Virus record (IMG/VR): IMGVR_UViG_3300044825_001572
Coordinates: 1 to 64,000 of that record
Strand: one strand, 5' to 3'
DNA: 64,000 nt
From: a virus
The number at the start of each line of letters is the position of its first letter. Position 1 is the first letter of the stretch. This document shows positions 20,682 to 39,200 of this stretch, one piece after another. The translations under genes were made by a program, and so were the position numbers. The notes under the pieces are model-generated. The model was not told the DNA's origin and searched no databases. It saw nothing but the letters and a program-made list of their open reading frames with translations.

Positions 20682-21086
20682 TCAAGTTGTAGTTATGCTA
20701 TATCTCCATCCAGATGGAGTTCTAATGTATAGACGATTATTTAAGGTATCAAAAATTAATGGTGCTTCTCCAGGAGGAATTGCAGAAGTGACTCCTGTGG
20801 GTGGTCCAGAACAAGTTGGAATACATAAGAATCCTTCAGTAGCAGTAGTTGCTAATGATGTACCTGATCCTACAAATATATTTCCACCATTAGGTTGAAG
20901 AGTTAAGTTGGTGAAAGGATTTGTGGTTCCTGATACTGGAAAGTTATCAATCGTTGTTGTACTTGCAACACCAACAGGAGATTGTATAGATCTTACAGTA
21001 ATTCCAGAACTATTTTGAAATGCTAGTTCCCCAAGCATTCCATTGGTGCTCAACTGGTTTATTCCCGATCCAATGAGGCTCGCCAT
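20682..21086 (-). CDS. 134-aa mini fibre/adaptor protein
   Basis: N-terminal GINQLSTNGMLGELAFQ motif; C-terminal FDTLNNRLYI....WR. Confidence 0.65.
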   Translation of the reverse strand: MASLIGSGINQLSTNGMLGELAFQNSSGITVRSIQSPVGVASTTTIDNFPVSGTTNPFTNLTLQPNGGNIFVGSGTSLATTATEGFLCIPTCSGPPTGVTSAIPPGEAPLIFDTLNNRLYIRTPSGWRYSITTT

Positions 21087-21112
21087 ATTACTTAAACTTT
21101 ATTAGTTATTTA

Positions 21113-21478
21113 TTAGAAGAAAGTCCTTTGTGGATTTTGTGGAGTTACAAGATAAGGCTCCAATTCAGTTGGAAGTGGAATTTCTGGTTTATTACCATAA
21201 ATCGTTCTATAATTGTAATGATATCCATCAATTTGAGTTGGTGGAGTAACTACAGTCATCTCACCAGTTTCTGGATTAGTTTCATAAACTCCATCATCAT
21301 TATAAAGAACTCCAACTTCATCGATTGCGAAAATTTCAGTTTGAGTAGTGACTTCTAATGTGTCCAGAGGTTCATTAGTTTCTGGATCATATGGAGTATA
21401 TGTGTGCTCTGGGATTGTGGAGAACACTTGGAGTGCTTCTTCTTTGGAAGCAAACTTAAGGAAATAATCTGTTATCAT
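21113..21478 (-). CDS. small adhesin-associated protein 1
   Basis: YFLKF..KEEA...ID.VG.LY...PPT..DGYH.N...VTP.NP.R.F; paralog of 26990..27313. Confidence 0.7.
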   Translation of the reverse strand: MITDYFLKFASKEEALQVFSTIPEHTYTPYDPETNEPLDTLEVTTQTEIFAIDEVGVLYNDDGVYETNPETGEMTVVTPPTQIDGYHYNYRTIYGNKPEIPLPTELEPYLVTPQNPQRTFF

Positions 21479-21494
21479 GATGTTTTTGTTTTAT

Positions 21495-22808
21495 TTATGA
21501 TGTGAGTGAGATTAATTGAGAATTGGGAAGACGTTTGGGGTAGTATGTGAGGCGGCGGATGGTTCCGTTATAATAAAATTGAGTTCCACTAACCGGAATT
21601 CTTGTTCCTATATCCATTCTTGTCATAGGAATAAAAACAAAACTTTGAGGAGAACTTCTAACTAATCCATTAAACGCCGCTGCTATTTCATTCTTACCAT
21701 AGGTTCCAGCAAGTTTAATATTATCTTGTATTGTGTAAAATGTATCACTAATAACAGAACTTGTACCACTATCAGTTCTAGTTTGAAAGGTTGCGGCATA
21801 ATTAGTAGATGCCCGAGTATCAAGATTTGGACCAATTCCTCTTAAATTATCTCCATACTGTATTCGAAATGGAGTTTGATTACTATATTCCCTAGAATTT
21901 ACTTTACAATTAACATATATGGTTCCTTCACTATCTTGCCTATAAAAATCACTAAAGTTCTTACCAGTTATTGATGCATTATCTGCGGCACGGGTTCTTG
22001 TGGATGCTTGTGTTGGTATATAGGATGTTGGGAATGAACCTTGTTCTAGTTGAGCGCCCCATAGGTAGATTCCACTTGTACCATCTCCAATATAAGTTGT
22101 ACTTCTATTAATTAACTGTATTCTAACTCTTAAATCAGTAACACTAGATGTACTGGGAGTTCCAGAAATAGAAAGACAAAACCATCCATTAGGTAAAGGA
22201 ACTATTGAGGAATTTGATATAGAACCTGTACCTCCAGTTCCAGTAGATATTACACTTACACTATCAATATCAAATGTTGTACCAATTCTATCAACATTAC
22301 TGTTTGAAAATAGCACTAAATTGATAAGTCTAACTCCAGAAAGTCTTTTTACATAAATTGACAAAGTTAATGGAACATTTGCTGCTTGAGATATTGTAGT
22401 TCTATCTAAATAATGATCTTGTAATCCACTAGATGAGGGTCTTTCAATAAAAGAGTCTGCAGTTAAAGATCCATCGGGTGCAACAGAAGAATTTAAAATA
22501 ATTGGAGAAGATGCTTTTATATTCCAAGCATTTTGTGCATTTTCACTCCAAGTAAATAAATTAGTCCTACTCTCCTCAATAAGTAACCCTAAACTCTCAC
22601 CAGTAACAGGATCGTGGTCAAATCTAGGTTCATTAACTCCAGCATACTTAATCAATCCATCAGCACCTACATAAGAACCACCAGATGCTCTAGTAAAAGT
22701 AATTCTAGGATCTAAAGTTTTACTATTAGCAAAGTCTAAGTCTAAGGTAGGTAAGACCTTTGGATAGTCTAATTCTGCACTGGTGTTAAATACTTGTTTA
22801 ACTGTCAT
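21495..22808 (-). CDS. adhesin-like virion protein, paralog 2
   Basis: Same three conserved blocks. Confidence 0.75.
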   Translation of the reverse strand: MTVKQVFNTSAELDYPKVLPTLDLDFANSKTLDPRITFTRASGGSYVGADGLIKYAGVNEPRFDHDPVTGESLGLLIEESRTNLFTWSENAQNAWNIKASSPIILNSSVAPDGSLTADSFIERPSSSGLQDHYLDRTTISQAANVPLTLSIYVKRLSGVRLINLVLFSNSNVDRIGTTFDIDSVSVISTGTGGTGSISNSSIVPLPNGWFCLSISGTPSTSSVTDLRVRIQLINRSTTYIGDGTSGIYLWGAQLEQGSFPTSYIPTQASTRTRAADNASITGKNFSDFYRQDSEGTIYVNCKVNSREYSNQTPFRIQYGDNLRGIGPNLDTRASTNYAATFQTRTDSGTSSVISDTFYTIQDNIKLAGTYGKNEIAAAFNGLVRSSPQSFVFIPMTRMDIGTRIPVSGTQFYYNGTIRRLTYYPKRLPNSQLISLTS

Positions 22809-22818
22809 TTTTTCCTCC

Positions 22819-25635
22819 TTATACAGTAATTCCAGTTCTTACCCACTTAATCGTATTATTACGATATGTAGGTGTGATCAATAATCGAGCATTAGTACCA
22901 CTAATATCAGCACCAAAAGTACCTAAAATTTCATTATTAGCAATCGTTGCGTATTCCATATAATCACAAGCAGTGGAAGCAGAACCTACAGATTGCATAA
23001 TCATTACATCAGTACTTTGGTAATTTCTTACCACATTAATTGCAATAAAACTAAATCCAGAACCAAGAGTTCCTAATGTAGCACTTAAACTATTTCCTGA
23101 GACATATCCACTTCCTGGTGATACAATTTCAACATAAGAAACTCCTCCCGCTTTAGTCATCGTATTACCAACCCCAGCAAATGTAGTAGTTCCAATTCCA
23201 GTAACTTGTGATGTACCATTAGAGTTATTATAAAGTTGTAAAGTAGTTGTTCCAACACCAACAGCATAGTAAATATTTCCGGCAGTAACGGCAAAACCAG
23301 TAAAACCACTATTTGGAATACTAGAAGCAAATGATACTGCAATTGTTCCTATCCCTGATGGTAGACCGTGAGCATCAGTAGTTACTAATAAATCTGTTGC
23401 ACTTGTAAATCCAACTAAATTAAATGATAATCCAATACCAATATTTGCTCGTGCATCATTTCCAGAACCACCAGTAAGTGCTACGTTTGTATAAGTTGCT
23501 TCAGTATATCCAGCACCAGCAACAATTGTTCCAACTGATGTAAATGCTGTAGTCATTCCAGCAGTTACTAATTGACCAGTACAAGCAATTGATACTTGAT
23601 ACCTTGCAGTTTGGAATGTTGCTGTTGCTAAATTATCTACGACCTGATTTTCAGTTGTTGCTGTAGTAGTAAGAATTCCAGAAGTTTGAGAACCAACTAC
23701 TCCAGTATCATAAGTTGTAGATGTAGTAACACCAGTATTGTTTATTGTGGTACTTCTTACATTAGTAATTGTAGAAATACCTGTATAATTTAAATTAGTT
23801 CCTGAAATATTTGTTACTGTTCCTGTAGTAGAATTTAATGTTGTTATGGTTCCAACACCAGTATTATTAAGAGTTGTACTTCTTACATTAGTAATTGTAG
23901 AAATACCTGTATAATTTAAATTAGTTCCTGAAATATTTGTTATAGTTCCAGTAGTACTATTGAGTGTTGTAATAGTTCCAACACCAGTATAGTTCAAATT
24001 TGTTCCAGATATATTAGTAACTATTCCAGTAACAATATTTCCATTTGTAAAATTTCCTGTTGTATAAGTTGCCGTAGTTCCACTTATTGTAGTTGCAGTA
24101 TTAACTCCAGAAGAGTTTAAGTTTCCATTAAGATTTCCATTAAAAGTAGTTGCTGTAACTACTCCAGATATTAAAGCATTTCCAACGATTTGTAATTTTT
24201 GAGTTGGATTGGTAGTTCCAATTCCCAAATCACCTAAAGAATCAACAACTAAAACATTAGTATTAAATGCCGAATTAATTTGTATTGGTTGAATTGGATT
24301 AGTCGTTGCAATTCCAACAAAACCAGAGGAATTTACAGTTACATCATCTTCACCTCCACCTTCTCTTCGTAATCCATTAGCACTAAAATCATCAAGGAAT
24401 GCTAATTGACCTAGGAATTGATTGAGTGGAACCTGTGATGCACCATAACCAACATCCGCTTGTGTTACTACATTCCAGTAAGTTCCATTAAAGAGTTCGG
24501 TAATTGTTCCACCAACTGCTAATGTTGAACCTGGAATAGTAGAGTTAATTCCTACAAATCCACCAGTAGTTGTAGTAATTATGGTTCCACCAGTTCCAAC
24601 ATTTAATCTTGTAGTTGTTGTTACTCCAGAAGTATTAATGTTGGTGTTAGAAATATTTGTTATAGTTCCAGTAGTACTATTAAGTGTTGTTATAGTTCCA
24701 ACACCAGTATAAGAAACATTAGTACCTGAAAGATTTGTTATAGTTCCTGTGGTGGAATTTAGTGTAGTTATAGTACCAACACCAGTATTATTAAGAGTTG
24801 TACTTCTTACATTAGTAATTGTAGAAATACCTGTATAATTTAAATTAGTTCCTGAAATATTAGTAACTACTCCAGTAACAATATTTCCATTTGTGAAGTT
24901 TCCTGTCGTATAAGTTGCAGTTGTACCGCTAATCGTAGTTGCAGTATTAACTCCAGAAGAGTTTAAGTTTCCAGTTATATTACCAACAAAAGTTGCAGTT
25001 ATAATACCAGCACTAAAACCACCAGAAGCATTTCTTGCAACTATTGTGGAGTTGGTATTATCACTTGTAGCATTAGAGGTTACTGTAAATGTTGAGTTTC
25101 CAGATTGGTTTGCTGTAAATGTTGCAGAGCCAGAAAGACCAGTCCCAGAAACTCCTAAAGTTAAAGTTCCATTATTTGGTGCAACTGTTGATACTCCAGT
25201 AACAAGACCTTTAGCATTTACAGTTACTACTGGAATAGCACCAGTTCCACCATAGGTTCCTATATTACTATTGACTGTTGCAAGAGTTGTTGTTGTGTTA
25301 TTTGAAGTTACATCACCAGAAAGATTTGGAATATTAGTGGTTGATGTTGCGGTTCCACTAAATGTTGTTGATGTAATAACTCCAGTTACATTAATATTAG
25401 AAAATGTTGCAATACCAGTTACATTTAAATCATTAAATGTATTTGGAGCATTTTGAATTGCTGATTCAATCGTAGAGGTTGTGATAGCATCTAGTGAAGT
25501 AATGTTCCTAAGCTGCCTAGAAGAACTTATAACTTCTGTATTACCAATACTTACTGATGTTACTGTTGTGATACCAGCATTTATGATATTTCTACTATCA
25601 TCAATAATAGTAGAATTTTGAATTTTAATTGCCAT
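22819..25635 (-). CDS. Thr/Gly-rich tail fibre (938 aa)
   Basis: GIGTTNP and TGVGTITTLNST repeats; QVPLNQFLGQLAF motif. Confidence 0.75.
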   Translation of the reverse strand: MAIKIQNSTIIDDSRNIINAGITTVTSVSIGNTEVISSSRQLRNITSLDAITTSTIESAIQNAPNTFNDLNVTGIATFSNINVTGVITSTTFSGTATSTTNIPNLSGDVTSNNTTTTLATVNSNIGTYGGTGAIPVVTVNAKGLVTGVSTVAPNNGTLTLGVSGTGLSGSATFTANQSGNSTFTVTSNATSDNTNSTIVARNASGGFSAGIITATFVGNITGNLNSSGVNTATTISGTTATYTTGNFTNGNIVTGVVTNISGTNLNYTGISTITNVRSTTLNNTGVGTITTLNSTTGTITNLSGTNVSYTGVGTITTLNSTTGTITNISNTNINTSGVTTTTRLNVGTGGTIITTTTGGFVGINSTIPGSTLAVGGTITELFNGTYWNVVTQADVGYGASQVPLNQFLGQLAFLDDFSANGLRREGGGEDDVTVNSSGFVGIATTNPIQPIQINSAFNTNVLVVDSLGDLGIGTTNPTQKLQIVGNALISGVVTATTFNGNLNGNLNSSGVNTATTISGTTATYTTGNFTNGNIVTGIVTNISGTNLNYTGVGTITTLNSTTGTITNISGTNLNYTGISTITNVRSTTLNNTGVGTITTLNSTTGTVTNISGTNLNYTGISTITNVRSTTINNTGVTTSTTYDTGVVGSQTSGILTTTATTENQVVDNLATATFQTARYQVSIACTGQLVTAGMTTAFTSVGTIVAGAGYTEATYTNVALTGGSGNDARANIGIGLSFNLVGFTSATDLLVTTDAHGLPSGIGTIAVSFASSIPNSGFTGFAVTAGNIYYAVGVGTTTLQLYNNSNGTSQVTGIGTTTFAGVGNTMTKAGGVSYVEIVSPGSGYVSGNSLSATLGTLGSGFSFIAINVVRNYQSTDVMIMQSVGSASTACDYMEYATIANNEILGTFGADISGTNARLLITPTYRNNTIKWVRTGITV

Positions 25636-25686
25636 TTGGTTCTACCGTCCTCGTATTACACTAGGTAGTTCTTATTATTTAGTTGT

Positions 25687-26997
25687 TTAGCGAGTTAATG
25701 CTTGCAATTGTTGGTCTGGAAGACGTTTTGGAAAGTATGTGAGACGGGAGATTGTTCCATTATACCACCAACCTCCATCAATACCTCTACCAATCCACAA
25801 TCTATCAAGTGTCGTCGGAGTAATAACTGTTATATCTACTAATGGGGGTATTCCATCATATGATACTGCGAAATTATTAAAAGAGTATCTAAATGCGGCT
25901 TTAAATTTTTGTAAGGATATGGTTGAGTTGCTAACTACAGTGGTCTGAATAAGGTCATTAGATTGAATATAAGAAGAATATGTAGAAGAATTTGAATTTT
26001 TTGCTAAACTAATATAGTTAACAGTACTTCCTGATGATGAATAAAATACTCCTGCTCTAGTACCTGGTGGGTGAGTTCCATAATTACTTCTAGAAATTGT
26101 AAAATAAGACCCTTCATCCTGCCTATACCAACTACTAAAGTTACTACCAGTTATTCGAGCATCATCTGCTGCTCTGGTTCTTGTGGAACCTACAGTTGGT
26201 ATATAGGATGTTGGAAAAGAGCCTACTTCTAGTTGAGAGCCCCATAGGTAGATTCCTGAAGATCCATTTCCAGTATATCCAATATCAAAAGCACCTCCAC
26301 TACCAATAAGATACATAGTAACCACACCATCAGTATTATTGCCTATATTTCCAGAAACGGAAATTCGATACCAATCATTTGGATATCTTTCAATAGATGT
26401 ATTGTTTAATGTTCCGCCAACAGTATTGGGGTCGGGAGTTACTACCTGTGTTCTCAGATTAAATGATGCACCAAATCTTGTACTATAATCGCTTTTCCTT
26501 ACGTGTATCATTATAGAAGTTCTTTCTGCTGCCTTTACAAAAACTGAAAACGTATATGTGTTATTTGCAATAGCAGTAAAACTTCTTGCTAATATTTTAT
26601 GATTAGTATTGGTATTTTCTATAAACTTGTCTGCAGTAGAATTTCCATCTGGTGCAGTTACTACATTTGCATCAACTCTAGCTGAATTTATCTTAATCCA
26701 ATAAGCATCATTAAACTCTTCACTTCTCTGTAATAAATTCTGTCTACTTTCCTCAATAAGTAACCCTAAACTCTCACCAGTCATAGGATCGTGGTCAAAT
26801 CTAGGTTCATTAACTCCAGCATACTTAATAAGTCCATCAACACCAACATAAGATGCTCCACTTGCTCTAGTATAAGTAATCCTAGGATCTAAAGTTTTAC
26901 TATTAGCAAAATCTAAATCCAAAGTAGGTCTTATACTTGGAAAATTATTGACTGATGACTTATTAGTTCCTGGTCTAAAAACTGCCATATCAAGCAA
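25687..26997 (-). CDS. adhesin-like virion protein, paralog 3
   Basis: Same conserved blocks; likely start MAVFRP at 26988. Confidence 0.75.
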   Translation of the reverse strand: MLDMAVFRPGTNKSSVNNFPSIRPTLDLDFANSKTLDPRITYTRASGASYVGVDGLIKYAGVNEPRFDHDPMTGESLGLLIEESRQNLLQRSEEFNDAYWIKINSARVDANVVTAPDGNSTADKFIENTNTNHKILARSFTAIANNTYTFSVFVKAAERTSIMIHVRKSDYSTRFGASFNLRTQVVTPDPNTVGGTLNNTSIERYPNDWYRISVSGNIGNNTDGVVTMYLIGSGGAFDIGYTGNGSSGIYLWGSQLEVGSFPTSYIPTVGSTRTRAADDARITGSNFSSWYRQDEGSYFTISRSNYGTHPPGTRAGVFYSSSGSTVNYISLAKNSNSSTYSSYIQSNDLIQTTVVSNSTISLQKFKAAFRYSFNNFAVSYDGIPPLVDITVITPTTLDRLWIGRGIDGGWWYNGTISRLTYFPKRLPDQQLQALTR

Positions 26998-27313
26998 ATA
27001 CTCTATAAGGATTGTTAGGAGTTACAATAAATTCTTTGAGTGCTTCTGGAAGACCACCTTGAAGAATTATATTAATATGCCAACCATCCAGTTTGGTCGG
27101 TGGTGTGATGGCTTCCCCAGTTTCTAAATCATAAACACCATCATTTCTATAAATCTCACCAACAATATCAATATCGCCTACTTGGTCAGTAACTGTATAG
27201 AAAGTTTGTTCTACACCATCAAAGGTTTCGGTTCTCTTATAACCAACTTCTTCAAGTTTGGTTTCTGCTTCTTCTTGGGAATTAAAACGAAGATAATAAG
27301 TTTGATAGGTCAT
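26990..27313 (-). CDS. small adhesin-associated protein 2
   Basis: YYLRF..QEEA...IDIVGEIY...PPTKLDGWHIN...VTPNNPYRVF. Confidence 0.7.
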   Translation of the reverse strand: MTYQTYYLRFNSQEEAETKLEEVGYKRTETFDGVEQTFYTVTDQVGDIDIVGEIYRNDGVYDLETGEAITPPTKLDGWHINIILQGGLPEALKEFIVTPNNPYRVFA

Positions 27314-27325
27314 AGTGTTTTTTGA

Positions 27326-28591
27326 CTATTTAGTGAGGTTGATTAATTGATTATCTGGAAGTCTTGATGGATAGTAGGTTAGTTGGGAGATTGTTCCTCC
27401 CCAATAATTACCTATTCCCATTCCAATAAGAAGTTGATTTACTCCGACAGGCATCTCAACTGAAGTATCAGTAGTTGTAAGAGTTCCATTTCCTCCAAAA
27501 GTGGAATCATTTTTTTTGAGTGCTTGTATCATTTTAAATTGCGAAGTGGTTGGAACATTTATTGCTACATATGGTGTTTGATTTACACCACCAGAACCTA
27601 TACTAAAATTTGTAAGTTGAGGACTATCTTTTGCACCATAAAAAGCAATATTATTATTAATAGTTCCATCCCATATTCGTGCAAGGTTTGGAAATGCCAA
27701 AAAGTTTCCACTATAATTTCTTCTTGCTGCAATCATTAAAGTCCATTCTGTTGGATTATACCAACTACTAAAATTACTTCCAGTTATACTTGCGTTATCT
27801 GGTGTGCGAGTTGCTGTGGAACCTGATGTTGGTATATAGGATGTTGGGAAGGACCCTTGTTCTAGTTGAGCGCCCCAGATGTAGATACCTGATGTTCCAT
27901 CTCCTGTATAAATGACATTTCCTGAAGAATCTAATGGTGAAATTGTTGGAATATTAGTGGTATTTACGGAACCTTTTGTTGTTGTTATCGAACATCTATA
28001 CCAACCATTAGGATATTGAGTTATTGTTGCTGCAGTATTTGTGTAATCTGTGTTATCTGAACTTATTGCAATAATTACTCCAGTTGACAAGTTAAAAGTT
28101 GCATTTGCTGAAGTAGTGAAAAAATTACTTAATTGCAATAAAATTTTATCTCTTCCCGCAGATTTACAAAAAACGCTAAATGTTACTGTTTCATTACTTC
28201 CTGTTCTGGATTGATAAACTGCGTGTTGGCTATTAGTTGTATCTTCTACTATTTTTTCTGCATTATTACTTCCATCTGGTGCTGTAGTTGCTGTGGTATT
28301 TGTTGCAATTCCTACAGCACTTTTAACCCAAGAAGTGTTATTAAATTCTTCACTTCTTAGTAATAAATTCTGCCTCTGCTCCTCCACCAACAATCCCAAA
28401 CACTCACCAGTAACAGGGTCGTGGTCAAATCTTGGAGAATTTGCAGGTGCAATTTTAATTAATCCATTCTCATCAATATAAGTTGCACTAGAAGTTCTTG
28501 TGAAAGTAATTCTAGGATCTAGAGTTTTAGACCTTGCAAAGTTAAGATTGAGAGATGGTCTGGTGGATGGGAAGTTTTGTGATATACTCAT
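27326..28591 (-). CDS. adhesin-like virion protein, paralog 4
   Basis: Same conserved blocks. Confidence 0.75.
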   Translation of the reverse strand: MSISQNFPSTRPSLNLNFARSKTLDPRITFTRTSSATYIDENGLIKIAPANSPRFDHDPVTGECLGLLVEEQRQNLLLRSEEFNNTSWVKSAVGIATNTTATTAPDGSNNAEKIVEDTTNSQHAVYQSRTGSNETVTFSVFCKSAGRDKILLQLSNFFTTSANATFNLSTGVIIAISSDNTDYTNTAATITQYPNGWYRCSITTTKGSVNTTNIPTISPLDSSGNVIYTGDGTSGIYIWGAQLEQGSFPTSYIPTSGSTATRTPDNASITGSNFSSWYNPTEWTLMIAARRNYSGNFLAFPNLARIWDGTINNNIAFYGAKDSPQLTNFSIGSGGVNQTPYVAINVPTTSQFKMIQALKKNDSTFGGNGTLTTTDTSVEMPVGVNQLLIGMGIGNYWGGTISQLTYYPSRLPDNQLINLTK

Positions 28592-28595
28592 AGTC

Positions 28596-29756
28596 TTACT
28601 TTGTTAGGTTTTGAAGGATTTGGTTAGATAGTCTTCGTGGGTAGTAGGTGAGTTGAGATATTGTTCCATTAAATAAAGATCCACTTGCAGAAGAACCAAT
28701 TCTCAATCTATTAATATTTGAAATTGTTGAAGAATATGTATTAGTTAATGTATTACTTCCATTATAAGAAGAACCATAATCTCCTGCTTTATATGCACCT
28801 ACCCATTTTGATACTCTACTGGAAGTTCTATCTAATGTCGTTACTACTGCAGATCCTGAACTAAAAGTTAAAAATCTTGCAGTAGATCCCACAGAATGGA
28901 AGAATATCATTCTATTTGATGATGTATTATCATTAAATTCTGCGACTGCTTGATCTCCAGATGCTATAGGAATATTATAATTTATTAAAGAAGTACCCTC
29001 ACTTTGATTATACCAACTTGAGAAGTTCTCACCGACTATAGAGGCATTATCTGCGGTTCTGGTTGCTGTGGAGTTCGTTGTTGGTATATAGGATGTTGGG
29101 AAGGAACCTTCTTCTAATTGTGCTCCCCAAAATACAACAGATTTTGAAGTGCCATCCGAAGAATTCGCAAATCCAATATTTGATCCACCTGCCGTTGATG
29201 TTGCAGTAAAAGTATAGGTATATCTTTTCCACGTTTCATCCACAGCAATATTATCGCTATAAACACCAATAGAAGTATTCCAATATTTAAATCTAAACTG
29301 ACTAGACCCAGAAACAGATCTAGCCCAGACTGATAATGTATATGTAGTTCCGTTTGTGATAAACGCCGTATTATGATTTACATCTGAAAATTGGTTATTG
29401 GAAAATGTAACAATATCTGCAGTTAGAGTTCCACTTGGAGATATTATTGAATTTGTAGTTAATGAAGTTATAAGAAACTGTGACCAAAATGTAGATAAAT
29501 CCTCACTATGAAATAATAAATTACTCCTACTCTCCTCAATCAACAATCCCAAAGATCTCACAGTACCACTCACAGGATCATAAGAATGGTCAAATCTTGG
29601 AGTATTTGCAGGAACCACCTCAATCAATCCTTTACCATTTACTCTGGTTGCAGATGAAGTTCTTATGAATGTAATGCGTGGGTCTAAGGTTTTAGACCTT
29701 GTAAAATTCAAGCAAAGTGATGGTGAAATTGCTGGGAAGTTTTGTTGGATACTCAT
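28596..29756 (-). CDS. adhesin-like virion protein, paralog 5
   Basis: Same conserved blocks; shorter central domain. Confidence 0.75.
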   Translation of the reverse strand: MSIQQNFPAISPSLCLNFTRSKTLDPRITFIRTSSATRVNGKGLIEVVPANTPRFDHSYDPVSGTVRSLGLLIEESRSNLLFHSEDLSTFWSQFLITSLTTNSIISPSGTLTADIVTFSNNQFSDVNHNTAFITNGTTYTLSVWARSVSGSSQFRFKYWNTSIGVYSDNIAVDETWKRYTYTFTATSTAGGSNIGFANSSDGTSKSVVFWGAQLEEGSFPTSYIPTTNSTATRTADNASIVGENFSSWYNQSEGTSLINYNIPIASGDQAVAEFNDNTSSNRMIFFHSVGSTARFLTFSSGSAVVTTLDRTSSRVSKWVGAYKAGDYGSSYNGSNTLTNTYSSTISNINRLRIGSSASGSLFNGTISQLTYYPRRLSNQILQNLTK

Positions 29757-31063: not shown

Positions 31064-34000
31064 CTAACCTAATTTCTCCTTTAGAATATTTATCTGGTTC
31101 TGCTGTTCCTTTACAACTTCTATAAGTAATCCAATCAAACCATTATAGTTTACAGTTTTAGTTTCTTCCCCATTTACGAGTTCTGGTAAAACTTTTTCAA
31201 TATCTTGAGCTATAACTCCCATAGAAGATTTACCAGTTTCTTTCCAGTCAAAAGAAACTCCAGTAATATTTAGAATTTTATCTATTGGATTTTCTATTGG
31301 TTTAATATTCTCTTTGAGTCTTATGTCTGATGCTGAGTTGAAATCTGTAGATGTAGTAACTCCAGTAATTAGAGCATCACCTTGTATATGAAGTCTTGAT
31401 GTTGGATTTGCGGTTCCTATCCCAAGATTACCAGAAACATAAGCACCACCAGTTACTTGAAGTGGTTGTGATGCGGTTCCTGTTGAACTTACAGAACCAA
31501 CTAAAATATTTGATCCATCAATTGCAAGAGAAGCATTAGTTGCTTGACGATTAAATAAAAATCTTCCAGAAAATTCTGATCTAAAAATAATATCTCCCTG
31601 TGCAGCATTATTTGCATACTGTCCTGGAGCGCCCGCTACTGCAATCGTCAAATCTCCATTATTTCTACCAACAGAAATTCCAGTATTGGAGGTTGAAAAT
31701 CCACTTCTTAATAGAAGTCCGAGATCACCACTTCTTGTTATTGCAACAAAATTCCCATCATAAGAAAGATTAGAAGATGTTGTTGTAGTATTAGTTGCGC
31801 TATTGTAAAGAATTCTGTTTGCTGCACCTACAACATTTGTGGAAGTTGTTGCAGTTCCTGTAAGATTACCTACAAAAGTAGTTGCAGTTGCTACACCAGA
31901 AACATTCAGTTGTCCTAATGTTCCAACAGAAGTGAGTGATGAATTAATAACTCCACTTCCAAGAGTTGTGGAACTTAAGACTGAAGTTCCATTAATTTCA
32001 TACTGCTTACCAGAAACTAGGTTCCAATCTTCACTTGAAGTTAATGCTCCCGCAGTATTATTCCAAGTGATTGTCTTACGAATTCCAGTAGAACCGATAC
32101 CAATTCCAGCACCATCAAGAAGTGCATTAGTTCCTACTGTTGTTGCAATACCAACATTAAAGTCTGCAAGTTCAATAGTTGAAGAATTAACAATAAACTG
32201 AGTACCATCTACATATAAGTCACCTTTAATTCTTACTGCACCTGTATCATCACCAACAACTGCAGGGTCAATAATTAATGTTGAAGGACCATAAATTGAA
32301 CCAGTAAGTTTAATATTTCCTACAACATCCAATTTTTCTGTTGGATTTGTTGTTCCTATTCCAATATTTCCAGAACTATTTCCATAAATCCAATTTACAC
32401 CATTACTTCCAATTGCAAGTTGTGTAGATCCACCAGGTATTGCAGGTTCAGCACTAAAACCTACTGCAACATTATAAGAACCTGTAACATTATATCCTGC
32501 ATAAGAACCTAGAAAAACATTTCCATTTCCAGTATTATTAACAAATCCTGCAAGAGAACCTATGAAAATATTTTCACTTCCATCACTATTATTATATCCA
32601 GACTGTTCTCCTATGAAATTATTATAAGATCCATCAAAATTTGTATATCCTGCAGAATTTCCTAAAAAGTTATTTCCTGTTCCACTATTATTTGTATATC
32701 CAACCTGATAACCTAAAAAGTTATTGTAATTTCCACCAATATTACTATACCCCACCTGATAACCTATGAAGTTATTATTATATCCAGTAATAGCAAGTTC
32801 TCCAGCACCAACTCCTGCAAAAAAATTATAATCTCCATCAATAGAAGTATTGGTAGTACTATCACCAAGTCTTATATTAGTACCATTAAACCCAATAGTT
32901 CCATCAACTTCAAGTTTTACTGTTGGATTTGTGCTTCCTATACCAACAGAACCACTAGAAGTAATTACAAAAGCACTTGAATCTGGATTTGCACTATCTT
33001 CAACAACTAATGCATTACCAGTTCCTGTTTGTGTGATTCTTAAGGCATCATTAGAACTATTAACTGATATTGTTGCAATTCCAGAAGATTGAAGTCCTTG
33101 TGTCTGAAGAATACCAAAGACCGTTGCACCATATCCAGTAGTTTCAAATTCTTTTACATTATCAAAATAGAGTCCTACTGGTCCATTTGAAATAAAACTT
33201 GCTTTTGTTTCCGAACCAGCAGCATTTGTAATAAGAACATTATTATCGCCAGTAAGATATAAATTTCCTGTTCCAAAATCTCCAATAATACTATTTCCAC
33301 CATCATGATAAATTCTTAAATCATTACCATCGCCAAAATATAAAATATCATTATCACCAAAGTAAGCAGAAGTTCCAAAACTTACGGCACCTGTGAATGT
33401 GGTGATTCCAAGTGTTGAAACACCAGAAGAATTAATGTTTGTTAAAGTAACATTGGTGCTATTCAGACTTGTAATCGTACCAACGCCAGTATAATTTAGA
33501 TTAGTTCCAGAAATGTTAGTAACAATACCAGTTACAATATTACCTGTTGTAAAGTTACCAGTCGTATAAGTTGCTGTTGTTCCAGATAGAGTTGGAATTG
33601 TACCAACACCAGAAGAATTAATGTTTCTTATAACTGCTAAATCATTTTGGGTAAATTGAACATTACCAACAGCAAGGTGAGTTCTTGTTGGGAATTGAGT
33701 AGATCCAATACCTACCGCATAGTTAATCAACCAAGCATCTGTATTGAGACCAGCAAAGGAACCGGACTTGAACCACATAATTTTCTTATATGTGGGAAGT
33801 GTTGATTCTCCAATACCAGGATTGTAAATTGAAACTAATGGACTACCTTCTGTTGATGCGACAGAAATACCGCCATGATTTGCTGTTGTATCATTAGAAA
33901 CATCATTATTATTTGAATCTGTTCTAAATCCAAGAACAATATCAGGGTCAGAGACTTTCAGTTCAGTCGTGAATAAAGTAGCAGAAGTTCCACCAATCGT

Positions 34001-36160
34001 AATATTACCAGTAACGTTTAAGTTACGATTAACTTGTAGGTCTCTAGTAACTGTTACATCTTGAGGGGCAGTAAATTGTGATGGGATACTTAATGTTGGT
34101 GTTGAACCCTCACCAGTTCCACTTGTTACTGTAATTTGATTTGATGTTCCAGAAATTGACTGAACATAATCACCAGTAGTATCTGTACCAAGTCCAACTG
34201 AGTTTGGTTGAATTGTTGCTGCTAATGATACATTACCAGTACCATCAAAACTAATTGCTGATGCAACAACGTCACCCGTAATTTCAAAAGTTCTTGGAGT
34301 TACTAATCGTGTTGCGGAACCAGCAATACCAGTTAATGAACCTACAAATGTTGTTGCTGTGACGACACCAGTAACTAATGTATCTCCGGATACGTGAAGT
34401 CTAGATGTTGGATTTGTGGTTCCAATACCAACCCTTTGAGTAGAGTTATTAACAACAAACCAAGTATTTGCCGAACTTCTACCTTCAAATGATACAATTT
34501 CGCTGGAACTTCTTGTGAATCTAAATGTGTCTCCACCACCACTACCAGAATCATTTATTGCTTGAAAATAAAATGTTTCATTATTTGCACCAACATTCCA
34601 GTTTCTATTGTTAGTTGTCGCATCTTCATCAACAAATCTAATAACAGGATCAACTGATTGTAAATGTAGTTCTTCTCTTGGATTTGTGGTTCCAATTCCA
34701 ACCCAACCATACCCACCACCTTTAATTACAAAAGCACTTGAATCTGGATTTGCACTATCTTCAACTACAAAAGCATTACCAGAACCAGATTGAGTAATTC
34801 TTAATGCATCGTTAGAACTATTGACCGATATTGTTGCAATTCCAGAAACATTTAATTGCGTTGATGTTAAATTAGTTAATGTGGTAATTCCAGAAGAATT
34901 TATATTTGTTAATGTTGCATTACTGCTAGTTAAAGAAGTGATTACTCCAGATAAAATATTTGCAGTATTATAGTTTAATGTAGTACCCGAAATCGTTGTT
35001 GCTGTATTAACTCCAGAAGAATTTAAATTTCCAGTAATATTACCAAAAAATGTTGTTGCTGTGACGACACCAGTAACTAATGTATCTCCGGATACGTGAA
35101 GTCTAGATGTTGGATTTAAAACATTTATTCCAACATTTCCAGTTGAACTTACTCGTAATCTCCTAGTGTTTGCAGTAAATATATCAAAATTTCCAAGTTC
35201 TCCTGAAGTTTGTCCCGCACTTATAGATACAGTTCCAGAGCCTCTGTTTAAAATTTGTAATCCGCCATCATCAGTTCCATTTCGTATTAATCTAGCTTGA
35301 TAGTCTGTATATAAAAGTTGTGGAAAATTCCCCCCACCAAAATCAATATATTTGGGAAGATCTGTATTTCCCATACCTATTTCAAATGATCTTCCATTAT
35401 CTGCCCCCATTCTAGTAACAGAATTATTAAATGAATTTGCTACTATCCATTCAGTATCATAAAATGTAAAAGTATTAAATATTTGACTATCACTATCAGA
35501 ATAAAATGGAATAAATGGATTTGTGGTACCTATTCCTATTCCATATCTTGTTTGAGTTACAGCAATTCCAGAAACATTATAACCAGAAGCTTCTCCTTTC
35601 AATGTAGTGATTAAATTGTATGTTCCTCCAATAGATACATTTAAATTTCCATTTATAACGGAATTACCATTAACCTGAAATGTTGATTGTGGATTTGTGG
35701 TTCCTATTCCAACAAAACCACTTGAGTTTACAGTTACATCATCTTCTCCACCACCATCTCTTCTTAAACCATTAGGACTAAAATCATCTAAGAATGCTAA
35801 TTGTCCTAAGTATTGATTGAGTGGTACTTGAGATGCTCCATAACCAACATCTGCTTGAGTTACTACATTCCAATATTGACCTCCGTATAATTCAGTAATA
35901 GTTCCACCAACTGCTAGAGTTGATTGTGGATTTGTGGTTCCTATACCAACATTTCCATCATTATAATATACACTACCACCAGGATTTTCGGTCCAAACGT
36001 TCAATAGTGTAACGGTAGTTCCTATTCCAACAGCTTCTTTCTTTGTGAATAGTCTACCATCATTTGTATTGAGTGCTAGTTCCCCCAGTTCTACTTGATT
36101 AGTAGAAGGTCTCTTCCCTGGAACAGCAGAACGCTTAAACTTTATGTAATTTGTTGCCAT
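31064..36160 (-). CDS. long tail fibre with C-terminal intramolecular chaperone (peptidase S74-type)
   Basis: N-terminal KRS...GELALNT.DGRLF; VGIGTTNP repeats; NNF.G..AG repeats; SDIRLKENI...GVIAQD.EK..PELV. Confidence 0.85.
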   Translation of the reverse strand: MATNYIKFKRSAVPGKRPSTNQVELGELALNTNDGRLFTKKEAVGIGTTVTLLNVWTENPGGSVYYNDGNVGIGTTNPQSTLAVGGTITELYGGQYWNVVTQADVGYGASQVPLNQYLGQLAFLDDFSPNGLRRDGGGEDDVTVNSSGFVGIGTTNPQSTFQVNGNSVINGNLNVSIGGTYNLITTLKGEASGYNVSGIAVTQTRYGIGIGTTNPFIPFYSDSDSQIFNTFTFYDTEWIVANSFNNSVTRMGADNGRSFEIGMGNTDLPKYIDFGGGNFPQLLYTDYQARLIRNGTDDGGLQILNRGSGTVSISAGQTSGELGNFDIFTANTRRLRVSSTGNVGINVLNPTSRLHVSGDTLVTGVVTATTFFGNITGNLNSSGVNTATTISGTTLNYNTANILSGVITSLTSSNATLTNINSSGITTLTNLTSTQLNVSGIATISVNSSNDALRITQSGSGNAFVVEDSANPDSSAFVIKGGGYGWVGIGTTNPREELHLQSVDPVIRFVDEDATTNNRNWNVGANNETFYFQAINDSGSGGGDTFRFTRSSSEIVSFEGRSSANTWFVVNNSTQRVGIGTTNPTSRLHVSGDTLVTGVVTATTFVGSLTGIAGSATRLVTPRTFEITGDVVASAISFDGTGNVSLAATIQPNSVGLGTDTTGDYVQSISGTSNQITVTSGTGEGSTPTLSIPSQFTAPQDVTVTRDLQVNRNLNVTGNITIGGTSATLFTTELKVSDPDIVLGFRTDSNNNDVSNDTTANHGGISVASTEGSPLVSIYNPGIGESTLPTYKKIMWFKSGSFAGLNTDAWLINYAVGIGSTQFPTRTHLAVGNVQFTQNDLAVIRNINSSGVGTIPTLSGTTATYTTGNFTTGNIVTGIVTNISGTNLNYTGVGTITSLNSTNVTLTNINSSGVSTLGITTFTGAVSFGTSAYFGDNDILYFGDGNDLRIYHDGGNSIIGDFGTGNLYLTGDNNVLITNAAGSETKASFISNGPVGLYFDNVKEFETTGYGATVFGILQTQGLQSSGIATISVNSSNDALRITQTGTGNALVVEDSANPDSSAFVITSSGSVGIGSTNPTVKLEVDGTIGFNGTNIRLGDSTTNTSIDGDYNFFAGVGAGELAITGYNNNFIGYQVGYSNIGGNYNNFLGYQVGYTNNSGTGNNFLGNSAGYTNFDGSYNNFIGEQSGYNNSDGSENIFIGSLAGFVNNTGNGNVFLGSYAGYNVTGSYNVAVGFSAEPAIPGGSTQLAIGSNGVNWIYGNSSGNIGIGTTNPTEKLDVVGNIKLTGSIYGPSTLIIDPAVVGDDTGAVRIKGDLYVDGTQFIVNSSTIELADFNVGIATTVGTNALLDGAGIGIGSTGIRKTITWNNTAGALTSSEDWNLVSGKQYEINGTSVLSSTTLGSGVINSSLTSVGTLGQLNVSGVATATTFVGNLTGTATTSTNVVGAANRILYNSATNTTTTSSNLSYDGNFVAITRSGDLGLLLRSGFSTSNTGISVGRNNGDLTIAVAGAPGQYANNAAQGDIIFRSEFSGRFLFNRQATNASLAIDGSNILVGSVSSTGTASQPLQVTGGAYVSGNLGIGTANPTSRLHIQGDALITGVTTSTDFNSASDIRLKENIKPIENPIDKILNITGVSFDWKETGKSSMGVIAQDIEKVLPELVNGEETKTVNYNGLIGLLIEVVKEQQNQINILKEKLG

Positions 36161-36209
36161 AATCCTGGTATATACCTAAATTAAAAGCTTATATAAGCCT
36201 TTTCACTAT

Positions 36210-39200
36210 TTAGACTGTAAACCTATCCCTAGAAATCTTAATAGTATTGTTTCTATAGGTTGGAGTAAATTGAAGATTTGCAGAATATTGTGGATTGGAA
36301 CCCTCTACTATATTAGCAGAAAATGTTCCCAAAATTTCTTCATTAGCTACAGTTGAATATTCCATATAATCTGCAGCGGTATTTCCAGAACCTACAGATT
36401 GTAATAACATTACATCACTTACCTGGAAATTATTAACTGTGATTGGATTGAAACTAAATCCAGAACCAACATTTCCATTATCGAAAGTATTATTTACAGA
36501 AATTATACTACCAGAAGTATATCCAGAACCAGGAGAAACTACAGATACATTTGTTATTTTTCCTCCAGCAAGAACTATAGGATTGCTACTTGCAAAAGAT
36601 ACGTTAGCAACATTACTAGAAGTTAAAGTACCAATTCCAGGTCTTGTAGATAGTTTTAATGTTGATGCTGTAGGAATTTCTGCGATATAATAGATTTGTG
36701 TAGTAACTCCATATCCAGGTCCAGGAAGAATACCGGGGAATCCAAGAGAAGCGGAAGCTCTAGCAGTAGATCCAATTCCAGATACTGGAGCAGTTATAGT
36801 TACAACTGCAGATTGAGCCGTAGTGTAACCAATACCAGTACTTGTTACTGTAATTGTTGATACCCCAAAACCAACTATACCCGTAGTTCCGCTTGGGCTG
36901 AATGTAGCAATTCCAGATTGAGCTAAATCAAATTGTGTATAACCAGCACCAGAATTTGTAATTACTACATTAGTTACAATAATAGTTGATACTGCAGCAC
37001 CAACACCTGATCCAGTATCTCCAGGAACTCCACCAGAGAATGATACTGAAGGAATTGATACAGAATATCCTGCCCCTGGATTAGTAACTAAAATCTCACT
37101 AATTCCTACCCCTACAGATCCTCTAGTACTTGTACCAATACCAGTTGGTGAACTAAATGTTACTGATGGAATAAAGGTATAACCTGCTCCTGGATTAGTG
37201 ATAGTAATGTTGGAAGATGTAACTCCAAGACCTAATGAATTGACCATTCCACCAGCTCCAGTTATACCATCAACAGCTGTAACTGATATAGATGGGTTAG
37301 ATGTATAACCACTTCCAAATTCATTAACAAATACAGTACCAATTCCCATTACAGCAGAAGCGGAAGCGCCATTACCAAGACCACCACTTGGAGATAAGAA
37401 AACAGAAGATACTGTAGTCACACCAAAACCGACATTAAGCACTTGGATATCAGTCAAGAACATTTGCGTAATTGTCGCTACAGCAACTGTCTCTGGAGTT
37501 CCTCCAGTAAATACAATTATTGGTGGAACAGTATAACCAAATCCAGGATTGGTAATAGAAATACTTTCAACTTGACCTGAGACATTGATTTGTGCTGTAC
37601 CTTGTGCTCCAGTACCAATTCCACCTACAGGACTAAATGAAACAGATGGATTACTATCATAACCACCTCCACCACTAATTAAAATTCCAGTTCCACTAAC
37701 CCCCATCCCAACTCTACCAACAAAATTTGTTGGAGATGGTGATACTGTTAATGTAGGAGCTATAGTATATCCAGAACCTGGTAAAATATTTGTAAAGGTT
37801 ACAATACCTAAATTACAACCAATAGTTGCTGTAGTACCTATTCCTGCTGGACTACCAACAGTTAGAATTGGAGGTCTAGTATATCCTGCACCTGGATTTG
37901 GAATACTAAAATGGGTTGAAATACTAAGAGTATTTACTACAGCAGTTGCAGTTGTTCCTACTCCCGTTGGAGATTGTATTGTAATGGTTGGATAATTTGG
38001 TCCGCTAGTTCCAGCGTATCCAAATCCTGTACCATCAATCCTAATGTTAGTAGCAAATAATCTATTGACCCTAGCAGTAGCAGCAGTTCCAACATTATTT
38101 CCTGGTACAGAGACTGTTGGAATAAATGAATAGTTAAAACCACTATTAGTAACAACAATTGTAGAAATGCCAAATCCAATCCGCCCAGTTGCAGTAGTAC
38201 CAACTCCAATTGGCGCATTAAATGTTACTGTAGGAATTTCTGTATGAATTCCTGCTTGAGTTATCCTAAAGTCAGTAATGCACATAGTAGCTACTTGAGC
38301 TGTAGCTGTAGAGCCTATTCCAGATACTCCAGAAATAGGAGGATTATTCGTAGGAGCTGAAATATTTACTGTTGGGAAATTTGTATAACCAAATCCAGTA
38401 TTTGTAATATTAATAGAAGTTAATCTAGAATTTTCTGCCGCAGTTGGTGGAATAGCCTGATTGAAAAGAATAGGCTTGTTTACGTTTAATGATGAAACAT
38501 CATTCTGGAAAGCAAAATTTCCATCTTGAATTGCAGTAAGTGTTAATGATGTTTCAGGCTCTACGGTTAGATTAGCTCTAGCATCATTTCCACTACCACT
38601 TGTTGTTAATAGTTCTATGTTAGTATAACTTCCACTAACATAATCTTGACCTTGACTTAAATTACTTATTGATCTAGATGATGAAGAAGTTCCAGAACCA
38701 ATTAACTGTCCGTTACAAGTAATTTGAATATTATATCTTGCACTTCTTTCAAATCCACAATCTAAACTATCTAACGTAACTGCTGAAGTGGATGTAGTAA
38801 CAACTTCAGTATTTCTAAATTGTGGAGGTAAATATTCATCAAGGAATGCAAGTTGTCCTAGGTATTGATTGAGTGGTACTTGAGATGCTCCATATCCAAC
38901 ATCAGCTTGAGTTACTACATTCCAATATTGACCGGCAAATTCCTCGGTAATAGTTCCACCAATTGCTAGTGTAGATCCTGGATTTGTAGTTCCAATTCCC
39001 AATCTACCAGTAGTAGGTACATAGCGAATTCCAGATGCATTAATATCTAAAGTATCTCTAATGGTAGTAATTCCAGAGAATATACTTCTCCCATTTAATA
39101 ATGTACTTCCACTTACATTTAGATTTGCAGTTGGGGAAGTAGTTCCAATACCTAGACTATTTGTTGATGGATTATAAGCTAAGTTATCACTGTCTAATAA

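What the first reader, a model, noticed from the sequence alone, without database searches (positions are those of the whole stretch)
21017..38925. One peptide motif recurs in four fibre-like proteins that precede the adhesin genes: candidate docking site
Seen: YWNVVTQADVGYGASQVPLNQ(Y/F)LGQLAFLD in the 1512-aa (about 38845-38925), 1698-aa (about 35792-35872) and 938-aa (about 24397-24478) proteins at different relative positions, and a degenerate IGSGINQLSTNGMLGELAFQN opening the 134-aa protein. In transcription order the 1698-, 938- and 134-aa carriers are each immediately followed by adhesin paralog(s). Inference: a plug-and-socket system in which this motif binds the constant adhesin N-terminal domain or links fibres, giving a branched multi-tip apparatus, with the 134-aa protein as a minimal adaptor.
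Basis: partly seen in the sequence, partly recalled or inferred. Interest (0 to 1): 0.72.

Follow-up and report, generated by a model that had tools for sequence, protein, structure and literature searches.

The report
Portable junction motif in phage fibres
A 30-residue peptide repeated in this cyanophage's tail-fibre proteins is the core of a widespread, undescribed fibre junction module. The module is almost always encoded next to, or fused to, a sugar-binding adhesin family, so it is a good candidate mounting point for swappable host-recognition heads, though binding is not shown.

Summary
Three fibre proteins (1512, 1698 and 938 aa) carry the same 30 residues, and the 134-aa protein opens with a slightly decayed N-terminal form.

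The motif is not special to this phage.
- A profile finds 724 protein clusters among 1.84 billion.
- It sits inside fibres, at shaft-to-head junctions, at residue 1 of small head proteins and in tandem 21-residue arrays.
- There is no Pfam family, no solved structure and no paper with these strings.

- Of 36 distinct motif genes from other viral contigs with downstream sequence, 34 have an adhesin gene next, within 1.4 kb, or fused.
- Fused and split forms are colinear.
- N-terminal-motif proteins lie directly after adhesin genes.

The pairing is not exclusive.
- Adhesins also join motif-less shafts.
- Free-standing adhesins follow motif-less fibres that share the 938-aa protein's C-terminal domain.
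- The motif also precedes C1q-like and enzyme heads.

Best reading: a self-contained fibre neck or junction module at which parts are exchanged and heads mounted. Specific docking of the adhesin N-domain, and branched fibres, remain untested.

Earlier scan notes describe similar plug-and-socket fibre cassettes in other cyanophage genomes; a look-up by sequence found no look-alike stretch there.

The parts
36210..40748 (-). 1512-aa fibre protein; motif at residues 608-637 (nt 38838-38927); shared module residues 581-645 (nt 38814-39008)
31064..36160 (-). 1698-aa fibre protein. The N-terminus carries a GELALN-type sequence of the Mtd_N-like class, though Pfam did not match it. Motif at residues 96-125 (nt 35786-35875); module residues 48-164 (nt 35669-36019). 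C-terminal Peptidase_S74 chaperone domain at residues 1611-1662 (nt 31175-31330).
22819..25635 (-). 938-aa fibre protein. N-terminus of the MAIKI..TIIDDSRN class. Motif at residues 386-415 (nt 24391-24480); module residues 339-454 (nt 24274-24621). The C-terminal domain is shared with the 1512-aa protein and with the motif-less fibres L152 and L187.
20682..21086 (-). 134-aa mini-fibre. N-terminal motif form at residues 1-25 (nt 21012-21086), then a small domain with a C-terminal ..DT.NNRLYIR...W.. cap. Orthologues are L112 (140 aa, 74% identity) and L010 (118 aa).
29753..31063 (-). adhesin paralogue (436 aa), directly after the 1698-aa gene
28596..29756 (-). adhesin paralogue (386 aa)
27326..28591 (-). 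adhesin paralogue (421 aa); NF048003 GTA head spike fiber domain at residues 68-263, 169.8 bits against a cut-off of 36
26990..27313 (-). SMALL protein (107 aa, phrog_18574), a companion of the adhesin genes; confident alpha/beta model (pLDDT 94)
25687..26997 (-). adhesin paralogue (436 aa from TTG, or 433 aa from the ATG at 26988)
21495..22808 (-). adhesin paralogue (437 aa), 10 nt after the 938-aa gene
21113..21478 (-). SMALL protein (121 aa, phrog_18574), directly ahead of the 134-aa gene
19385..20677 (-). adhesin paralogue (430 aa), 4 nt after the 134-aa gene

Best explanation
The motif is the core of a self-contained junction or neck module of trimeric phage fibres.

The module has a short beta-hairpin (..TE....Y/F-W-N-V-V-T-Q) followed by a 21-residue unit (D-I/V-G-x4-Q-I/V-P-L-N-Q-Y-L-G-Q-L-A-F-x-D). 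The second half of that unit is an amphipathic helix.

Inferred mechanism:
- Three copies form a short axial bundle that sets the register between one fibre part and the next.
- Any part can therefore be placed on either side of it: more shaft, a distal head, or nothing when it sits at the N-terminus.
- Recombination within its conserved codons can then swap parts.

In this phage the three internal copies mark the boundaries of mosaic fibre segments.

The module belongs to a recurring cassette: fibre with motif, then one to three lectin-like adhesins of the GTA head-spike-fibre family, then a small companion protein. In some phages the adhesin is fused just behind the motif. In most it is the next gene. 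Where the fibre ends shortly after the motif, the adhesin probably sits there non-covalently.

What is shown: the motif's anatomy, its distribution, the gene linkage, and the fusion and fission forms. What is inferred: trimeric bundle formation and any docking.
For: Distribution:
- 196 or more proteins of 139-1995 aa carry the module at any relative position, in 1-3 copies, at 70-90% identity.
- A 48-position profile finds 724 clusters at E<=1e-3 among 1.84 billion representatives. These include tandem 21-residue arrays (P0258; P0287 = Mtd_N + 6 units + GDPD) and small proteins with two copies.

Junction position:
- 101 of 131 copies are followed by a conserved linker and the next GIGTT shaft unit.
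- The rest go straight into C-terminal head domains of fixed length (144, 121, 103 or 47 aa) or into the 1512-type body.

N-terminal form: residues 1-25 are almost invariant in more than 100 proteins whose sequence diverges right after residue 25. Many of these have C1q or BclA_C-like heads.

Mosaic breakpoint in the window: the 938-aa protein is 1512-like upstream of the motif and 1698-like from the motif onward.

Selection acts on the protein. Window copies differ at 5-10 of 30 codons synonymously but at 0-1 residue. Copies in different genomes differ at 41% of identical-residue codons and about 6 residues.

Linkage to the adhesin:
- 34 of 36 non-duplicate motif genes have an adhesin next, within 1.4 kb, or fused.
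- Counted as clusters, 30 against 6 at 70% identity and 12 against 6 at 50%.
- 0 of 9 control fibre loci that have GIGTT units but no motif have an adhesin.
- 5 of 5 large contigs with the window's variant have one.
- The loci come from different phage types: tape-measure-bearing, terminase/portal-adjacent and T4-like.

Fused and split junctions are colinear.

The AlphaFold monomer gives a hairpin plus a 13-residue helix over LNQYLGQLAFLDD, but at low confidence.
Against: - No structure or interaction was obtained.
- Polar residues (N, Q, D, E, P) are invariant across lineages. That is more than a buried neck strictly needs and could reflect a conserved binding partner.
- Copies within one genome share their variable four-residue loop. 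That would also fit co-evolution with a common partner.
- The very high frequency of adhesin genes beside motif genes is not predicted by a purely structural role.
Confidence: 0.5

Rival explanations
1. The motif is a specific socket that binds the constant N-terminal part of the free-standing adhesins. Adhesins would then hang from each motif node, and the fibres would be branched and multi-tipped. The 134-aa protein would be a minimal adaptor.
For: - Adhesin genes lie next to motif genes in 34 of 36 informative loci.
- Natural fusions have the motif 11-25 residues ahead of the adhesin, and split forms are cut in that linker (L036, L066, L072).
- Among cultured phages, the nine records with the N-terminal motif are the same nine that have full-length free-standing adhesins.
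- The unit of N-terminal-motif protein followed by an adhesin recurs in L010 and L112.
- In RcGTA this adhesin family is anchored through its extreme N-terminus (PMC10218006).
Against: - Free-standing adhesins follow the complete motif-less fibres L152 and L187 and the motif-less S-CAM4 gp073.
- Adhesin domains are fused to several unrelated shaft ends.
- S-TIM54 has the adhesin as a virion protein, and tblastn with either motif form did not match it.
- The motif precedes non-adhesin heads and forms tandem arrays.
- The window's internal copies are continuous with further shaft.
Confidence: 0.2
2. The motif is a plug, not a socket. It would be an N-terminal anchor peptide that attaches its carrier to a conserved partner: the adhesin-bearing fibre, the small companion protein, or the baseplate. 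This resembles the conserved N-terminal peptides of secondary receptor-binding proteins in Klebsiella, K1-5 and G7C phages. Internal copies would be relics of end-to-end gene fusions.
For: - Residues 1-25 are almost invariant ahead of many unrelated heads, including adhesin domains themselves (L123 5887, L131 5860, L167 5827).
- N-terminal-motif genes lie directly after adhesin genes, with or without the small protein, in 22 adhesin-sampled loci and in 6 of 6 loci sampled by the S-CAM4-type motif.
Against: - No partner was identified.
- No protein ends with the hairpin half of the module.
- The small companion protein also follows adhesins in loci without any motif.
- No T4gp10-like domain was found by Pfam in the window.
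- Tandem arrays and mid-shaft copies are hard to explain as plugs.
Confidence: 0.2
3. The conservation is only at the DNA level. The motif would be a recombination linker kept alike by gene conversion, with no role of its own in the protein.
For: - Exact runs of about 30 nt are shared by the 1512- and 1698-aa copies.
- Mosaic breakpoints fall at the motif.
- Copies within a genome are somewhat closer at synonymous sites than copies in different genomes (0.29 against 0.41).
Against: - Synonymous sites differ in 17-38% of codons between copies in one genome while the residues stay identical.
- 19 residues are invariant across lineages whose synonymous sites differ at 41% of codons.
Confidence: 0.03

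Closest known systems
Branched receptor-binding-protein systems of Klebsiella podophages, K1-5/SP6 and G7C (PMC6872550; validated in PMC13352976)
   Same: A short conserved N-terminal peptide (7-29 residues) sits on swappable heads. Heads are encoded beside the anchoring fibre. The parts are standard and re-used across phages.
   Different: In those phages the socket is a T4gp10-like domain; none was detected here by Pfam. The peptide here has a different sequence. It also occurs inside fibres and in tandem arrays. Docking has not been shown.
RcGTA head spike fibre (rcc01080; NF048003), anchored by its N-terminal ~10 residues in a pentameric base (PMC10218006, PMC7296036)
   Same: The window's six adhesin paralogues belong to this domain family. 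It is a two-domain lectin-like protein that binds capsule polysaccharide and is held by its N-terminus.
   Different: In RcGTA it sits on the capsid, on a pentameric base. Here it lies in tail-fibre cassettes, free-standing or fused behind fibre shafts. No base-protein homologue was sought.
T4-type long tail fibre joints, and the T2/T6/S16 gp37 fibre with the gp38 adhesin encoded downstream
   Same: Fibres are built from separate proteins joined end to end. The tip adhesin and a helper are encoded directly after the fibre gene. Conserved motifs act as recombination points (general knowledge).
   Different: No sequence relationship was found. The joint element here is a different peptide, and the adhesin is a lectin-like jelly-roll family.
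Bdellovibrio mosaic adhesive trimer fibres (PDB 8ond, 8ojn, 8oml)
   Same: The GIGTT..P...L.V shaft units that flank the motif match these chains by sequence profile (E = 5e-9).
   Different: The match covers only the flanking shaft units. The motif itself has no counterpart in any solved chain.

Membership tests
NF048003 GTA_spike_fiber (phage head spike fiber domain), for the adhesin paralogues | Profile score above NCBI's curated cut-off | tested here: met
   169.8 bits against a cut-off of 36, E = 8e-50, residues 68-263 of the 421-aa paralogue. The six paralogues are 35-44% identical to one another.
NF048003 GTA_spike_fiber, for the adhesin paralogues | Anchored to an oligomeric base through the extreme N-terminus, as in RcGTA | not testable with these tools
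   Known for RcGTA only (PMC10218006). No multimer prediction was available.
Anchor-branch receptor-binding-protein systems (Klebsiella, G7C and K1-5 type) | Short conserved N-terminal peptide on otherwise variable heads | tested here: met
   residues 1-25 are almost invariant ahead of diverse heads. The window's 134-aa protein carries a slightly decayed form.
Anchor-branch receptor-binding-protein systems (Klebsiella, G7C and K1-5 type) | T4gp10-like branching domain in the partner fibre | tested here: inconclusive
   Pfam found none in the 1512-, 1698-, 938-, 1734- or 2577-aa proteins. One metagenomic motif protein, P0066, has T4_gp9_10_N. No fold-level search was made.
Anchor-branch receptor-binding-protein systems (Klebsiella, G7C and K1-5 type) | Physical docking of the peptide on the partner | not testable with these tools
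   No multimer prediction or experiment was possible.
Any curated family covering the motif (Pfam, NCBIfam, PDB) | Significant profile or sequence match over the motif | tested here: not met
   Pfam gave none and NCBIfam none. PDB gave only E = 0.17 chance rows. phrog_15750, of unknown function, matches the N-terminal form in metagenomic relatives but not the window's 134-aa protein.
Exosporium leader peptide (the annotation of the N-terminal-motif protein in Synechococcus phage ACG-2014j) | Match to an NCBIfam exosporium-leader model | tested here: not met
   no such hit for the window's protein, the S-CAM4, S-WAM2 and L010 proteins, P0182 or P0123. The C-terminal heads do resemble C1q/BclA_C.
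Peptidase_S74 intramolecular chaperone (1698-aa fibre) | Pfam match above the gathering score at the C-terminus | tested here: met
   60.7 bits against 22, residues 1611-1662.

The most novel reading that the evidence does not exclude
The motif is one half of a widespread snap-on connector code of aquatic phages. Lectin-like adhesins and small knob proteins would be attached non-covalently at motif nodes along and at the ends of fibres. That would give branched, multi-headed fibres whose heads can be exchanged by moving single genes.
Probability: 0.25. Interest if true: 0.75.

Novelty: new member of a known kind. Interest (0 to 1): 0.55.

Why it matters
How marine and freshwater cyanophages assemble and reshuffle their many fibre proteins is largely unknown. 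This peptide is a compact, easily recognised marker of module boundaries in hundreds of fibre gene families. Its tight linkage to one adhesin family, with natural fused and split forms, gives a directly testable pair for docking studies, for example in the cultured phages S-CAM4 and S-WAM2. If docking is confirmed, it would explain how such phages carry several host-recognition heads, and it would help in reading host range from metagenomes.

Tried and rejected
- Solved structures: sequence searches with the module and motif profiles hit only the flanking GIGTT units (Bdellovibrio fibres) or chance rows.
- AlphaFold monomer of the 130-residue module: pLDDT 54, too poor to use for fold search.
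- Search for a trans "socket" made of the hairpin half alone at a protein's C-terminus: none in the window, in the S-CAM4 or S-WAM2 genomes, or in about 180 loci.
- Small companion protein as a motif-specific connector: rejected. It follows adhesins in loci with no motif and in S-TIM54. Its confident model (pLDDT 94) has no clear PDB relative by Foldseek or VIA (best Z 5.0).
- Exosporium-leader reading: no NCBIfam support.
- DNA-only recombination linker: disfavoured by synonymous divergence.
- Literature search for the motif strings: no relevant paper.
- Whole-contig checks found six fragmentary motif contigs without an adhesin. Both complete (terminal-repeat) genomes tested had one.
Full report
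**Setting**

The window is part of a 76.7-kb contig of a T4-like cyanomyovirus. It has baseplate hub/lysozyme, tube and wedge genes, and its only nucleotide matches are to Synechococcus phages. Positions 11-46 kb hold a minus-strand run of giant fibre genes (2577, 1698, 1512 and 1734 aa) and a 938-aa one.

**Observation**

The 30-residue string is present three times. It is identical except for one Y/F, and it lies within a few bases of the coordinates given.

The 134-aa protein begins with a related 25-residue string. Its 74%-identical orthologue in L112 has the canonical NQIPTN where the window has NQLSTN, so the window copy is a slightly decayed true member.

The gene order claimed is correct. 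The shared region is larger than 30 residues. The motif is the best-conserved part of a 65-120-residue module made of:
- a GIGTTNP shaft unit;
- a hairpin-like TE....YWNVVTQ;
- the 21-residue core;
- a DxxSPxGLRRxGGGxDDV linker;
- the next shaft unit.

The 938-aa protein resembles the 1512-aa protein for about 400 residues up to the motif. It resembles the 1698-aa protein from about 50 residues before the motif onward. So the motif sits at a mosaic breakpoint.

**How common the motif is**

- A word-based search found 196 or more metagenomic proteins of 139-1995 aa with the module at 70-90% identity. It lies anywhere along the chain and occurs once to three times.
- A 48-position profile against 1.84 billion cluster representatives gave 724 clusters at E<=1e-3 and 139 at E<=1e-10.
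- The weaker hits show the 21-residue core used in other ways. P0258 has six tandem copies. P0287 has an Mtd_N anchor, six copies and a GDPD enzyme domain. Small proteins such as P0288 have an N-terminal copy, a hairpin, a second copy and a head.
- A separate search starting from S-CAM4 gp070 found more than 100 proteins, mostly 146-196 aa. Their first 25 residues are almost invariant and their sequences diverge immediately afterwards. Many have C1q or BclA_C-like heads.
- No Pfam or NCBIfam model covers the motif, no solved chain contains it, and no paper in the library contains the strings.

**What follows the motif**

Of 131 copies in the first hit set, 101 continue through the conserved linker into another shaft unit. 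The others pass directly into C-terminal domains of fixed length (144, 121, 103 or 47 residues) or into the 1512-type body. Together with the N-terminal class, this makes the motif a junction between fibre parts.

**Protein-level or DNA-level conservation**

The window's three copies differ at 5-10 of 30 codons, all but one synonymously. Across eight within-contig pairs, 29% of identical-residue codons differ, with 1.5 residue changes. Across 202 between-contig pairs the figures are 41% and 6.2. Nineteen residues are invariant in 16 copies from 12 distinct contigs (13 loci and the window).

Selection therefore acts on the peptide. The shared 20-30-nt exact runs could still serve recombination.

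**The adhesin family**

The paralogues match NF048003, the GTA head spike fiber domain (169.8 bits). They have a constant-variable-constant layout typical of two lectin-like jelly rolls. In RcGTA this protein binds capsule polysaccharide and is held by its N-terminal ~10 residues in a pentameric base (PMC10218006). The broad family is present in 734 cultured-phage records.

Sampling by motif:
- A degenerate DNA pattern for NQIPLNQYLG retrieved 79 stretches of IMG/VR, 73 of them new loci.
- 36 non-duplicate motif genes had at least 400 nt of downstream sequence. In 18 the adhesin is the next gene. In 14 it lies within 1.4 kb downstream. In 2 the motif and adhesin are in one reading frame. In 2 there is none.
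- Clustering the motif proteins gives 30 against 6 clusters at 70% identity and 12 against 6 at 50%.
- Nine control loci fetched through the GIGTT shaft unit, but lacking the motif, have no adhesin. The control is small and not phylogenetically corrected.
- The loci come from different phage types: one has a tape-measure gene, another has terminase and portal genes within 8 kb, and the window is T4-like.
- All five large contigs with the window's own variant carry adhesins.
- Whole-contig checks of ten further contigs found adhesins in four, including both complete genomes, and none in six fragments.

Sampling from the adhesin side (78 loci, of which 54 non-duplicate loci were informative):
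- 10 have a motif gene upstream.
- 2 were scored as fused by the script. One of these (L155) has its motif 348 residues ahead of the adhesin, and the other (L143) was not inspected.
- 22 have an N-terminal-motif protein just downstream, usually after SMALL.
- 20 have no motif.

Sampling by the S-CAM4-type N-terminal motif: an adhesin lies immediately upstream in 6 of 6 informative loci.

Among cultured phages, the nine records with the N-terminal motif are exactly the nine with full-length free-standing adhesins: S-CAM4, ACG-2014j and S-WAM2.

**Fusion and fission**

- In L052 and L043 the motif is followed after about 11 residues by the start of the adhesin profile.
- In L123 (5887), L131 (5860) and L167 (5827) the N-terminal motif is followed after 13-25 residues by the adhesin.
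- In L036, L066 and L072 the fibre stops 9-26 residues after the motif, and the next gene starts with the adhesin's first conserved strand.

These forms are colinear. This is the strongest evidence that the adhesin is mounted just distal to the motif in at least some phages.

**Limits of the pairing**

- Adhesin domains are also fused behind alanine-rich coils and two other kinds of shaft end.
- Some have their own 27-46-residue N-terminal peptides, with no motif nearby.
- S-TIM54 carries the adhesin as a 1026-aa virion protein, and tblastn with either motif form did not match it.
- The complete fibres L152 and L187 lack the motif. They end in the same C-terminal domain as the window's 938- and 1512-aa proteins and are followed directly by free-standing adhesins. 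For the 938-aa gene this points to its C-terminal domain, not its internal motif, as the likelier contact.
- SMALL follows adhesins whether or not a motif is present: 54 distinct homologues, and also S-TIM54. It is therefore an adhesin companion, not a motif partner. Its model is confident (pLDDT 94) but has no clear solved relative.

**Mechanism**

I commit to the junction/neck reading (about 0.5). The AlphaFold monomer, at low confidence, gives a hairpin and a 13-residue helix over LNQYLGQLAFLDD. The hydrophobic residues in that helix are spaced 3-4 apart, and tandem arrays have a 21-residue period, which equals three heptads. Both fit short axial three-helix bundles.

Such a self-contained element would let any part be joined on either side, and it would be a natural crossover point. 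The cassette reading of the window is then:
- 1698 > three adhesins > SMALL;
- (adhesin) 938 > adhesin > SMALL;
- 134 > adhesin.

Each fibre would carry its own lectin tip or tips.

Specific binding of the adhesin N-domain to the motif (about 0.2) and the plug reading (about 0.2) are not excluded. The first is favoured by the fused and split forms. The second is favoured by the invariance of the N-terminal class.

**Comparison with known systems**

The closest working analogue is the conserved-peptide / T4gp10-like-domain docking of branched receptor-binding proteins in Klebsiella, K1-5 and G7C phages (PMC6872550, PMC13352976). No T4gp10-like domain was detected here by Pfam. The peptide is unrelated in sequence and is also used internally and in arrays.

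Earlier notes of this scan describe plug-and-socket fibre cassettes in other cyanophage genomes. A look-up by sequence found no look-alike stretch there, so whether they concern this motif is unknown.

**Verdict**

The motif is an undescribed but widespread member of the known class of conserved fibre junction or anchor elements. The proposed link to the adhesin family is real at the level of the genome, but its physical basis is unproven. Branched fibres remain speculative.

Noticed in passing
window 26990-27313 and 21113-21478 (-): The SMALL proteins (phrog_18574) follow adhesin genes in at least 54 distinct loci and in cyanophage S-TIM54, with or without the motif. The AlphaFold model is confident (pLDDT 94, alpha/beta fold) but has no clear PDB relative. 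They are probably an adhesin chaperone or partner.
   Followed up: partly
window 22819-23500 and 36210-36950 (-); L152:1553-5974, L187:2048-5977: The C-terminal domain shared by the 938- and 1512-aa proteins (ending ..TPTY.NN..K..R....) also ends motif-less fibres in other contigs. There it is followed directly, with overlapping start, by a free-standing adhesin gene. It is a second candidate contact for adhesins.
   Followed up: partly
window 20682-20800 (-); L010:17031-17387; L084:5301-5774; P0318; P0080: A short C-terminal cap (G-E/D......D.....LY-I/V......W-K/R.....) ends the 134-aa protein and several unrelated small motif proteins. It often lies just ahead of an adhesin gene.
   Followed up: no
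window 25560-25635 (-) and metagenomic proteins P0017-P0043: The 938-aa protein's first 16 residues (MAIKI..TIIDDSRN) form another recurrent N-terminal class, seen in 20 motif-bearing proteins of very different length. This suggests a second conserved anchor peptide.
   Followed up: no
Synechococcus phage ACG-2014j (KJ019089, about 172480-172611): The N-terminal-motif protein is annotated 'exosporium leader peptide'. Relatives have C1q/BclA_C-like heads, but no NCBIfam exosporium-leader match was found for them.
   Followed up: partly
P0287 (metagenomic, 305 aa): A compact fibre built from an Mtd_N anchor, six tandem 21-residue motif units and a glycerophosphodiester phosphodiesterase domain. 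It shows that the motif unit can itself form a shaft.
   Followed up: no
window 25687-26997 (-): The longest reading frame of this adhesin paralogue starts at a TTG that overlaps the end of the SMALL gene. An ATG at 26988 would give 433 aa and is the likelier start.
   Followed up: no
P0066 (metagenomic, 360 aa): One motif-bearing protein has a T4 gp9/gp10 N-terminal domain ahead of the motif. This links the module to a baseplate-attached protein.
   Followed up: no
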